Part shown: in pieces, positions 56,329 to 57,965 of the stretch | How positions within the stretch are numbered: position 1 is the first letter of the stretch | How the letters are laid out: the number at the start of each line of letters is the position of its first letter | From: Escherichia coli | Lineage (GTDB): Bacteria; Pseudomonadota; Gammaproteobacteria; Enterobacterales; Enterobacteriaceae | DNA: 57,965 nt | NCBI RefSeq assembly: GCF_003334765.1 | Contig: NZ_QOWT01000026.1 | Strand: one strand, 5' to 3' | Made by a program: the position numbers

Positions 56329-57965
56329 TCACGACGAATAACCTGACCGTAACAGTTATTTGAACGAATGCGGCAATCGCGTCCGCCATCCTTAATCCAC
56401 CAGCGAATCGCTTCGCATGCACCTTTACGATCACCAGCATTCAGCCGCTTATAAAACGTCGACGGGAAACACTTACCGGGGCCAATGTTATAGGGACAAA
56501 ATGACGCGATACCCGCTTTTTGTGGTTCGGTCAGTGGTACTTTAATATTGCGCTCCACCCATGCCAGCGCCTTATCACGCTCAATGGCGTTGACCTGGTC
56601 GCATTTTTCCTTCGACAGTTTCATATTGGGAAAAACGGTTTTTCCATCCACCACTGTGGCACCCCGACAGATGGTCCATATGCCAGAACCATCGCGGTAT
56701 GCCATTGTGTGGTTACCTTCTTTTTCGTCCAGAAACTGGTCAAGTATCTGAGGAGCAGATGCGCCAGCACCAATCAGCGCCAGAACGGCAGCCGACAGGC
56801 CGTATCTGATTTTTGTGTTCATAGATATTTATGATGAGGACGCTCGTGCTTATTGGCAGGATTTTCAATCTTAAAGGAGTACTGATGCTGCAGATAAGAC
56901 TCAACTTTTTCTGACAATTTTTCTGCTACTTCCAGGAAGACTTGCCGGACGCTCCTTCTGGCTGCTGCCTCATAAAACTCCAGCGCAGCTCCTTCAACAC
57001 GGTCCATGGCGACATCCAGGTCAAAAATTTCACCGTCAAAGCGTTCTTTGTCCTGTAAGGCTACAGTTACCGTAACTTTATTCTCAAAATTACGGACTCC
57101 TTTCACAACCAGTTCATAGTCTTGAGTCATTGGATTACTCTCCTCTCGCAGCCTTACGCCTGTCTTCTTTAATCTTGAAATAAAGATTTGTCAGATACGT
57201 CAGCAGGCCAAAAACCAGGCTACCCAGCACACCGATTGCAGCCCACTGTGACGGAGTTACTTTATCGAGTAACTGCAATGCCCAGAAACCAGCATTACCC
57301 GCCGATGTGCCATAGGCAACACCTGTTGTTAACTTATCCATTGATTTCATATCCTCACCCCGATGTACACGGATGGTGCAATATGTTTGAAAAGATCGGA
57401 GTCTACGGGGTAGTTTTGACAGCACACGTTGTTCTCAACGGCGCTAAAAAAACATACACATTAAAAATGTGGGTAATTATTTTGAAAGAAAGTCATATAT
57501 AAAATAATAATACGAGAAATGTTTTCATATTTAGTGTACTGTATACGGCCATTTATACAGGAAAAGCCTATGTCAGAACGTAAAAACTCAAAATCACGCC
57601 GTAATTATCTCGTTAAATGTTCCTGCCCAAACTGCACCCAAGAGTCAGAACACAGTTTTTCAAGAGTACAAAAAGGTGCCCTTTTGATCTGCCCTCATTG
57701 CAACAAAGTATTCCAGACAAATCTTAAAGCTGTAGCCTGATTGATTTTATTAGTAACAAGTATTTTTTATATTTTAATAATATATTTAAAGCAGATAATA
57801 AAAAACCCGCCTGAGCGGGTTTGAGATTGTGGTGCTTTTTGTGGGAGTCATCCACTTACGCACTTTGTTTTGCCATGCCAGCAGTTAGGGAAGGTGCGAA
57901 CAAGTCCCTGATATGAGATCATGTTTGTCATCTGGAGCCATGGAACAGGGTTCATCATGAGTCAT

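What the first reader, a model, noticed from the sequence alone, without database searches (positions are those of the whole stretch)
57570..57740. Small zinc-ribbon ORF transcribed away from the lysis cassette
A 56-codon frame with two CxxC pairs (CSCPNC ... CPHC) and a good RBS lies divergent from essQ. Zinc-ribbon small proteins in this position can be regulators; the identity here is unverified.
Basis: seen in the sequence. Interest (0 to 1): 0.35.

Follow-up and report, generated by a model that had tools for sequence, protein, structure and literature searches.

The report
ynfU, a known small zinc-ribbon gene
The 56-codon frame is the already catalogued E. coli gene ynfU, a small zinc-ribbon protein that others have shown to be made. 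Its function is unknown, and it travels with cold-shock genes rather than belonging to the phage lysis genes beside it.

Summary
Window 57570-57740 (+) is a 56-codon ORF with an AGGA Shine-Dalgarno 7 nt upstream, two CPxC knuckles, and a start 219 nt from the divergently transcribed essQ holin gene.

It is not new. It is 100% identical to ynfU (b4776) of the Qin prophage of E. coli K-12. It matches Pfam PF23499 (E 3.9e-31) and NCBIfam NF038384 (79.4 bits, cut-off 36). Translation was shown by start-codon ribosome profiling with chromosomal tagging (Weaver et al. 2019) and again by PIRT-Seq. No paper found assigns a function.

What I add:
- C19, C22, C41 and C44, plus an S-x-H-S motif, are conserved across Enterobacterales. 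Synonymous sites are saturated (pS 0.78) while pN is 0.17.
- In 10 of 14 distinct genomic contexts, many outside prophages, a cold-shock-domain gene lies within about 0.2-0.8 kb. Only 3 of 14 have a holin next door.
- ynfU, cspB and cspF form a cassette of about 1.3 kb.

The "regulator of the lysis cassette" idea is therefore not supported. My best guess (about 0.35, inferred) is a basic zinc ribbon that binds RNA or the ribosome as part of a csp-linked stress module. Interest is low: an already known gene.

The parts
57570..57740 (+). ynfU coding sequence (56 codons plus TGA). The product is a small basic Cys4 zinc-ribbon protein.
   Evidence: Sequence. 100% identical to the MG1655 region annotated 'putative zinc-binding protein YnfU'. 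Pfam PF23499 E 3.9e-31. NCBIfam NF038384 79.4 bits against a cut-off of 36. Purifying selection.
57559..57562 (+). Shine-Dalgarno AGGA, 7 nt before the ATG
   Evidence: CAGGA(A/G) is kept at the same distance in most of the 14 genera compared and is degenerate in a few, such as Hafnia.
57534..57542 (+). Conserved non-coding box GTGTACTGT (family consensus GTGTAYGGT) in the ynfU leader or promoter region. Its role is unknown.
   Evidence: Alignments A2 and A3. It is conserved whatever the reading frame, and Klebsiella and Salmonella have in-frame stops around it. No consensus RNA structure was found.
57482..57511 (+). Predicted sigma-70 promoter for ynfU (TTGAAA-N18-AATAAT, 10 of 12 matches). 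This is a prediction only.
   Evidence: Consensus scan, (3 sites found against 2.2 expected, so weak on its own). An A/T-rich -10-like hexamer aligns here in other genera.
57803..57822 (-). G+C-rich hairpin, followed on the - strand by TTTTTTATTAT. It is an intrinsic terminator for leftward transcription (cspB or late read-through). On the + strand it is followed by only TTT, so it is a weaker stop for ynfU.
   Evidence: and the sequence.
57135..57350 (-). essQ holin gene (71 aa; RefSeq/PGAP labels it 'phage lysis protein EssD'), the first gene of the lysis cassette and the divergent neighbour of ynfU. Listed for context; not part of the ynfU unit.
57889..57965 (+). Left end of an IS5 element inserted after a TTAG target, 148 nt past the ynfU stop. 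In this strain it separates ynfU from cspB. Listed for context; not part of the ynfU unit.
   Evidence: Identity to K-12 and most genomes stops at 57888. The remainder matches 'IS5-like element IS5 family transposase' regions.

Best explanation
The ORF is ynfU (b4776), a known, translated 56-aa protein of Qin-type lambdoid prophages.

Shown:
- It belongs to the YnfU family, which is restricted to Enterobacterales.
- Its core is CPxC-N18-CPxC. C19, C22, C41 and C44 are the conserved candidate zinc ligands, and an S26-x-H28-S29 motif is conserved between the two knuckles.
- It is strongly basic (pI 9.6, about +6.6 at pH 7).
- It is under purifying selection.
- It has its own SD and a conserved upstream region.
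- It is the outer gene of a cassette of about 1.3 kb, ynfU-> <-cspB cspF->. This cassette, or a ynfU-csp pair, recurs in prophages and at ordinary chromosomal sites in many genera.

Inferred:
- In Qin the cassette is an accessory ('moron') insertion between the Q antiterminator gene and the lysis genes, so the adjacency to essQ is incidental.
- The protein folds as one Zn(Cys)4 ribbon.
- It acts in trans on the host. Most likely it binds RNA or the ribosome alongside the Csp RNA chaperones during cold or other stress transitions. It is not a regulator of lysis.

My probabilities for the steps:
- identity: 0.98
- Cys4 zinc ribbon: 0.85
- csp-linked cassette: 0.85
- not a lysis regulator: 0.8
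- RNA- or ribosome-binding mechanism: about 0.35

The single confidence value given for this explanation (0.55) is a blend of these.
For: Identity:
- 100% DNA identity to MG1655 over 57300-57888, with the RefSeq annotation ynfU.
- NCBIfam NF038384 at 79.4 bits against a cut-off of 36.
- Pfam YnfU PF23499 at E 3.9e-31.

Translation:
- Start-codon ribosome profiling with Onc112 and retapamulin, followed by chromosomal tagging. YnfU was the most abundant of the newly found small proteins in stationary phase (bioRxiv 10.1101/511675).
- Independently detected by PIRT-Seq (PMC12350097).

Conservation:
- P20, C22, S29, L39, C41 and C44 are invariant across 29 sequences reaching Erwinia and Hafnia.
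- C19, S26, H28, P42 and F48 are at least 90% conserved.
- C17 is lost in distant members, so it is not a ligand.
- pS 0.78 against pN 0.17.

Fold:
- The AF2 core has pLDDT of about 80-87, with beta strands around both knuckles.

csp linkage:
- 10 of 14 distinct contexts have a CSD gene within about 200-830 bp, in four different arrangements.
- The background is about 9 csp genes per 4.6 Mb, about 0.4% per 2-kb neighbourhood. This figure comes from my own knowledge of K-12.
- DNA similarity between E. coli and the Superficieibacter prophage runs continuously from 12 nt upstream of ynfU to the end of cspF and stops there.

Precedent: YnfR, a small protein encoded next to a cold-shock gene (beside cspI in the Qin annotation), is strongly cold-induced (PMC6001520).
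Against: - No experiment links YnfU to cold shock, RNA or the ribosome.
- It is well expressed at 37 C in stationary phase.
- 4 of 14 contexts have no csp gene nearby.
- The basic N-terminal tail is not kept in the most distant members from Erwinia and Hafnia.
- Zinc binding itself has never been measured.
- The contexts are related by descent, so the linkage statistic overstates independence.
Confidence: 0.55

Rival explanations
1. YnfU is a protein-binding modulator. The zinc ribbon would be a docking module for a larger host protein, as with many E. coli small proteins and with zinc ribbons such as LysW, ZitP or the DNL-type Hsp70 escort Tim15/Hep1. It would bind no nucleic acid.
Confidence: 0.3
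2. One reading: YnfU regulates the adjacent lysis cassette or late transcription. It could do so as a DNA-binding zinc protein, or through its own transcription running head-on against late or cspB read-through.
For: It is divergent from a holin gene in three phage contexts: Qin type, the Superficieibacter prophages and Klebsiella phage ST13-OXA48phi12.4. ynfU is antisense to any transcript coming from Q/pR' or cspB towards essQ.
Against: 11 of 14 contexts have no lysis gene nearby, and many are not prophages at all: Enterobacter, Lelliottia, Kluyvera, K. electrica, Franconibacter, Hafnia. DNA homology between prophages covers ynfU-cspB-cspF but not the holin. There is no match to any phage regulator family: no PHROGs match is significant and there are no PADLOC hits. 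A strong - strand terminator already insulates essQ.
Confidence: 0.07
3. YnfU is mainly a metal-handling protein, serving as a zinc buffer, store or metallochaperone.
For: It has four conserved Cys plus a conserved His28 in 56 residues. The literature describes it only as 'putative zinc-binding'.
Against: One structural Zn site per 6.4-kDa protein is a poor store. No Zur-regulon or metal-transport genes are among the conserved neighbours. The invariant surface motif S-E-H-S-F..R.QKG suggests a specific interaction.
Confidence: 0.05
4. The real product is the longer 73-aa frame starting at the ATG at 57519.
For: The frame is open back to 57519 in E. coli. Several database entries are called with N-terminal extensions that share a 'VYG..P' string.
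Against: Klebsiella sp. and Salmonella have in-frame stops 1-12 codons upstream of the MS.RK start, yet keep the same nucleotides, so that conservation is non-coding. The SD sits before the 57570 ATG in most genera. The annotation based on initiation-site profiling is 56 aa.
Confidence: 0.04

Closest known systems
YnfU family (Pfam PF23499; NCBIfam NF038384; E. coli K-12 ynfU/b4776, Qin prophage)
   Same: The sequence is identical to the K-12 gene. It gives full-length matches to both family models well above their thresholds, in the same genomic position beside essQ.
   Different: The gene itself does not differ. In this strain an IS5 element follows it at 57889, where K-12 continues towards cspB.
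N-terminal zinc ribbon of PhnA/YjdM-like proteins (P. aeruginosa PA0128, PDB 2akl; Pfam PF08274)
   Same: Both have two CxxC knuckles forming a small zinc ribbon. Weaver et al. noted a moderate threading match. Here, Pfam Zn_Ribbon_YjdM gives E 3.1e-4 and 2akl is in the Foldseek top 3.
   Different: The matches are weak: PDB profile E 0.54 and Foldseek E 0.86. PhnA proteins carry an additional C-terminal domain that YnfU lacks. PA0128 also has no known function.
DNL-type zinc finger (Tim15/Zim17/Hep1, mitochondrial Hsp70 escort; PDB 2e2z; Pfam PF05180)
   Same: It is the best solved-structure profile match. The spacing between knuckles is similar, and S, H, KG and CPHC are shared.
   Different: E is only 0.011 (PDB) and 0.1 (Pfam). 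The defining D(N/H)L motif is not conserved in the YnfU family. DNL fingers are mainly eukaryotic organelle proteins (from my own knowledge).
Ribosomal and ribosome-bound small zinc ribbons (eL42/L44e, L37Ae, the M. acetivorans ribosome zinc-finger protein 9o17_AZ)
csp-linked small proteins of E. coli prophages and cold-shock islands (YnfR, YnfQ, YnaE/YdfK, YmcF, GnsA/B)
   Same: These are short genes that sit beside csp genes. YnfR is strongly cold-induced. YnaE-like and YmcF-like genes lie directly upstream of ynfU in Lelliottia and Kluyvera.
   Different: This is a set defined by genomic context, not a sequence family. Cold induction of YnfU has not been tested, and the protein is abundant at 37 C.

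Membership tests
YnfU family (PF23499 / NF038384) | Full-length match to the family HMM above the curated threshold | tested here: met
   NCBIfam 79.4 bits against a cut-off of 36, residues 1-51 on model positions 1-51 of 52. Pfam E 3.9e-31, residues 1-49 on 1-49 of 49.
YnfU family (PF23499 / NF038384) | Identity with the type gene ynfU (b4776) of the K-12 Qin prophage, in the same position beside essQ | tested here: met
   100% DNA identity over 57300-57888 to MG1655, where the feature is annotated ynfU. The b4776 number comes from PMC9976479.
YnfU family (PF23499 / NF038384) | The protein is actually synthesised | not testable with these tools
   Taken from the literature for the identical K-12 allele: initiation ribosome profiling plus tagged immunoblot (10.1101/511675), and PIRT-Seq (PMC12350097).
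Cys4 zinc ribbon fold | Two CxxC (CPxC) knuckles conserved in homologs | tested here: met
   C22, C41 and C44 are invariant and C19 is at least 90% conserved across 29 sequences. Exceptions are single sequences.
Cys4 zinc ribbon fold | Beta-hairpin knuckles packed into a small sheet, with structural similarity to solved zinc ribbons | tested here: inconclusive
   [not shown]
Cys4 zinc ribbon fold | Stoichiometric zinc binding | not testable with these tools
   No measurement was found in the literature searched.
Lambdoid lysis-cassette component or regulator (holin/antiholin, endolysin, spanin, late-gene regulator) | Encoded in, and co-transcribed with, the lysis or late operon, and found with it consistently | tested here: not met
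   It is on the opposite strand to essQ-ydfR-rrrQ-rzpQ. A holin is the neighbour in only 3 of 14 contexts. There is no significant PHROGs match.
DNL-type zinc finger (PF05180) | Significant HMM match and a conserved D(N/H)L motif after the second CxxC | tested here: not met
   Pfam i-Evalue 0.1, 13 bits. The C-terminal tail is variable and has no conserved DNL.
Known anti-phage defence proteins (PADLOC) | Match to a defence-system model | tested here: not met
   0 families at E of 1 or less.
csp-linked accessory cassette (ynfU-cspB-cspF); defined here, not a curated family | A cold-shock-domain gene within about 1 kb of ynfU in independent genomic settings | tested here: met
   10 of 14 distinct contexts. 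Four arrangements occur: convergent, tandem, csp upstream of ynfU, and tandem with DUF2058 between. Cassette boundaries come from blastn. In this window cspB itself is out of view because the window ends in IS5.
Cold-shock-inducible proteins | Induction on temperature downshift | not testable with these tools
   No data on YnfU were found. Rfam's cspA thermoregulator matches the cspI leader (55193-55578) but nothing at ynfU. The ynfU leader has no consensus structure.

The most novel reading that the evidence does not exclude
YnfU is a dedicated partner of the prophage- and island-borne cold-shock proteins. In this reading it is a zinc-ribbon RNA- or ribosome-binding factor that has been co-inherited with cspB/cspF as a mobile 1.3-kb cassette across Enterobacterales, and that contributes to adaptation to cold or other translation stress. 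That would give a first function to a well expressed 'dark' E. coli small protein. It would also define a three-gene stress cassette that phages carry as cargo.
Probability: 0.3. Interest if true: 0.4.

Novelty: already known. Interest (0 to 1): 0.13.

Why it matters
As a finding it is ordinary. The gene is annotated in RefSeq, has its own Pfam and NCBIfam families, and was validated experimentally in 2019. It matters only modestly. YnfU was the most abundant of the small proteins reported in the 2019 screen, yet no function is assigned to it in any paper found. The recurrent ynfU-csp linkage shown here gives a concrete and cheap hypothesis: test cold induction and RNA or ribosome binding, rather than a role in phage lysis.

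Tried and rejected
1. Conserved RNA structure in the ynfU leader: RNAalifold on 10 genera gave no pairs. An E. coli-only hairpin (CTGTATA/TATACAG) that I saw by eye is not conserved.
2. Rfam over the whole window found nothing at ynfU.
3. PHROGs gave only insignificant hits of unknown function. PADLOC gave none.
4. Function from structure:
   - The first AF2 model was poor (pLDDT 62), and Foldseek against the PDB gave nothing below E 0.38.
5. PDB sequence profile search: Tim15 at E 0.011 and L44e at E 0.03. I judged these to be zinc-ribbon cross-talk, not homology.
6. The upstream 'VYG..P' extension as coding sequence was rejected because of in-frame stops and frame shifts in Klebsiella and Salmonella.
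7. Literature: 15 papers mention ynfU and none gives a function. Searching 'b4776' added nothing. The silver-nanoparticle paper reports only a low-frequency intergenic ynfU/cspB polymorphism.
8. Genomic SELEX peaks for RpoH and RpoE holoenzymes in the 'essQ/cspB' spacer map, by my own coordinate conversion, inside or just after ynfU. The resolution is too coarse to assign a promoter.
9. The context look-up for P0042 (Citrobacter) found no record.
10. I did not run the expensive genome contigs census, because the cheap look-ups already gave 14 contexts.

Full report
**1. The observation**

Window 57570-57740 on the + strand reads ATG...TGA, 56 codons. The product is MSERKNSKSRRNYLVKCSCPNCTQESEHSFSRVQKGALLICPHCNKVFQTNLKAVA. 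AGGA at 57559-57562 lies 7 nt before the ATG.

The leftward neighbour, 57135-57350 (-), is the 71-aa essQ holin gene (PGAP name EssD), followed by ydfR, rrrQ and rzpQ. ynfU is therefore divergent from the lysis cassette, with 219 nt between the two start codons.

The mechanical ORF list extends the frame to an ATG at 57519 (73 aa). That start has no conserved SD. In Klebsiella sp. and Salmonella the corresponding upstream stretch carries in-frame stops.

Only 3 of 449 stop-to-stop frames of at least 50 aa in the window contain CxxC-N10-30-CxxC.

**2. Identity**

A megablast of 57300-57965 against complete E. coli genomes found matches in 2523 of 5426 genomes (a count that includes matches to the IS5 end of the query). 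In 1632 of them at least 80% of the query is covered. Identity to K-12 MG1655 is 100% up to 57888. The feature there is annotated 'ynfU: putative zinc-binding protein YnfU', next to 'essD'.

The protein matches NCBIfam NF038384 'YnfU family zinc-binding protein' at 79.4 bits (cut-off 36). It matches Pfam PF23499 'YnfU' at E 3.9e-31 over its whole length.

The surrounding genes in MG1655 are the Qin prophage set: nohA, ynfO, ydfO, gnsB, ynfN, ynfR, ynfQ, cspI, rzpQ, rrrQ, ydfR, essQ, ynfU, cspB, cspF, the Q antiterminator ydfT, ydfU, rem, hokD and relBE. Intact phages such as PhiR42_1 carry the same arrangement.

**3. What is already published**

- Weaver, Mohammad, Buskirk and Storz trapped initiating ribosomes with Onc112 and retapamulin, tagged 41 candidate small ORFs on the chromosome and detected 38 of them.
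- YnfU was the most abundant of the new proteins in stationary phase. It was the only one with a recognisable motif, 'a pair of zinc knuckles' (CPXC), with a moderate threading match to the zinc domain of PA0128 (bioRxiv 10.1101/511675).
- PIRT-Seq detected ynfU independently as protein-coding (PMC12350097).
- Later papers only repeat 'possible metal binding' (PMC11704790) or list it among uncharacterised prophage genes as b4776 (PMC9976479).
- An experimental-evolution study reports a low-frequency intergenic ynfU/cspB polymorphism that carries no functional meaning (PMC13306010).
- No paper found assigns a function.

**4. Family and conservation**

A word-indexed search found 49 relatives. 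An exhaustive profile search of 1.84 billion cluster representatives found only 43 clusters at E of 0.001 or less. Every relative for which a source names the organism is from Enterobacterales, apart from one metagenome bin labelled Azospira. The named ones are:
- Escherichia, Klebsiella, Enterobacter, Kosakonia
- Lelliottia, Kluyvera, Salmonella, Citrobacter
- Superficieibacter, Franconibacter, Cronobacter, Jejubacter
- Mangrovibacter, Erwinia, Hafnia

Across 29 sequences, P20, C22, S29, L39, C41 and C44 are invariant. C19, S26, H28, P42 and F48 are at least 90% conserved. C17 is replaced in the distant members, so the ligand set is C19/C22/C41/C44.

Codon-level comparison of 13 genera gives a mean pS of 0.78 (saturated) against a pN of 0.17. 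This is a clear signature of selection on the protein. The protein is basic (pI 9.6, about +6.6 at pH 7). Most of the charge lies in a conserved N-terminal tail, R4 K5 ... R11 N12. That tail is not kept in the Erwinia and Hafnia members.

**5. Structure**

With the first alignment AF2 gave pLDDT 62. With a more diverse alignment it gave pLDDT 75, with 80-87 over residues 11-50, strands at 14-18, 25-29, 38-40 and 47-49, and a short helix at 30-35.

A profile search of PDB sequences gave Tim15 (DNL zinc finger) at E 0.011 and L44e at E 0.03. I read all of this as support for 'it is a zinc ribbon' and nothing more specific.

**6. Genomic context: the main new point**

I collected 14 distinct contexts.

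| Arrangement | Where found |
|---|---|
| Triad ynfU-> <-cspB-like cspF-like->, between Q and the holin | E. coli Qin-type prophages; Superficieibacter prophages |
| Triad, next to an integrase and SOS genes | Phage PHB10 |
| Triad, at ordinary chromosomal sites | Kluyvera (between thrS and pfkB, with a YmcF-like gene); Klebsiella electrica (beside the bud operon) |
| Convergent ynfU-csp pair | Lelliottia (with a YnaE-family gene directly upstream); Kosakonia cowanii |
| cspF-like gene downstream, same strand | Klebsiella sp. |
| cspB-like gene upstream | Salmonella |
| ynfU-DUF2058-CSD on one strand | Hafnia |
| No csp gene nearby | Klebsiella phage; Enterobacter; Franconibacter; Kosakonia sp. 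|

Distances from ynfU to the CSD gene are 203-415 bp in nine of the ten csp-linked contexts and about 830 bp in Hafnia. With about 9 csp genes in a 4.6-Mb genome (my own knowledge of K-12), a random 2-kb neighbourhood holds one about 0.4% of the time. So 10 of 14 is far beyond chance, even allowing for common descent, because four different arrangements occur.

Blastn shows that similarity between E. coli and other genera starts 12-60 nt upstream of the ynfU ATG. In the Superficieibacter prophage it runs unbroken (1.3 kb, 67% identity) to the end of cspF, and it does not extend into the holin or Q genes.

By contrast, a holin is the neighbour in only 3 of 14 contexts. In Qin, therefore, ynfU is the outer gene of an accessory ynfU-cspB-cspF cassette lodged between Q and the lysis genes. 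It is not part of the lysis cassette.

**7. Signals around the gene**

- A sigma-70-like site (TTGAAA-N18-AATAAT, 57482-57511) scores 10 of 12. However, the scan finds about as many sites in shuffled sequence.
- The roughly 75 nt upstream of the ATG are conserved across genera even though synonymous sites are saturated. They include a box GTGTAYGGT (57534-57542 here) that is kept whatever the reading frame.
- No consensus RNA structure was found there, and Rfam has no match.
- Downstream, the hairpin at 57803-57822 is a strong terminator for the - strand (T6 tail) and a weak one for ynfU. It would stop cspB or unantiterminated late transcription before essQ.
- Genomic SELEX reported RpoH and RpoE holoenzyme binding in the then 'essQ/cspB' spacer (PMC5493296). 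By my own coordinate conversion these peaks fall in or just after ynfU, which is too coarse to interpret.

**8. Mechanism**

Shown:
- a translated, conserved, basic protein with four conserved Cys in two CPxC knuckles
- its own translation signal and a conserved upstream region
- cassette linkage to csp genes

Inferred:
- One structural Zn(Cys)4 site.
- A trans-acting role in the host.
- A most likely mode of action as an RNA- or ribosome-binding helper deployed together with the Csp RNA chaperones (about 0.35). The basis is its charge, the csp linkage and the precedent of YnfR, a small protein encoded next to a cold-shock gene (beside cspI in the Qin annotation) that is strongly cold-induced (PMC6001520).

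Rivals:
- a purely protein-binding modulator (about 0.3)
- metal handling (about 0.05)
- the 73-aa isoform (about 0.04)

Against the main idea: YnfU is abundant at 37 C, four contexts lack a csp gene, and nothing has been tested experimentally.

**9. Comparison and verdict**

The gene is a member of the YnfU family. In fact it is the type member: every testable membership criterion is met. It resembles PhnA/PA0128, DNL fingers and ribosomal zinc ribbons only at the level of the generic fold, and it fails the DNL membership test. It is not a known defence or phage-regulator protein.

Novelty: already known. Interest is low. The only added value is the ynfU-csp cassette linkage, which redirects functional testing away from lysis and towards cold or translation stress.

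Noticed in passing
[not shown]
   Followed up: partly
window 57534-57542 and about 57510-57525: Two nucleotide boxes upstream of ynfU, GTGTAYGGT and A(C/A)(A/G)AGC(A/T)A, lie about 18 nt apart. 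They are conserved in more than 10 genera although synonymous sites are saturated. They are non-coding (frame-independent) and have no consensus RNA structure. They could be an unusual promoter or an operator.
   Followed up: partly
window 55193-55578 (-): Rfam's cspA thermoregulator matches at 112.8 bits. This is the long leader of cspI, another cold-shock gene of the same prophage. In K-12, ynfQ, ynfR, ynfN and gnsB follow it.
   Followed up: no
window 39878-40091 (-) and 51486-51684 (-): Rfam matches the STnc560 Hfq-binding sRNA (281 bits) and IS009 (221 bits) elsewhere in the window.
   Followed up: no
window 57803-57822 (-): A strong intrinsic terminator faces leftward between cspB and ynfU, followed by T6. 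It would block cold-induced cspB read-through, or late transcription without antitermination, from reaching the holin gene.
   Followed up: no
L027-L030 (Hafnia) 4001-5483: The most distant YnfU homolog examined sits in an apparent same-strand trio, ynfU - DUF2058 - a 160-aa CSD-containing protein. This may be an operon.
   Followed up: no
protein P0058 (186 aa, a single record): A predicted protein joins a cold-shock-domain N-terminal motif (..VKWFNADK) directly to YnfU from C17 onward (CSCPNCTQ...). It looks like a csp-ynfU deletion chimera or an assembly artefact.
   Followed up: no
K-12 'essQ/cspB' spacer (literature), corresponding to about window 57570-57810: Genomic SELEX (PMC5493296) lists RpoH and RpoE holoenzyme binding peaks in this spacer. 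The work predates the annotation of ynfU. By my own coordinate conversion the peaks fall inside or just after ynfU.
   Followed up: partly
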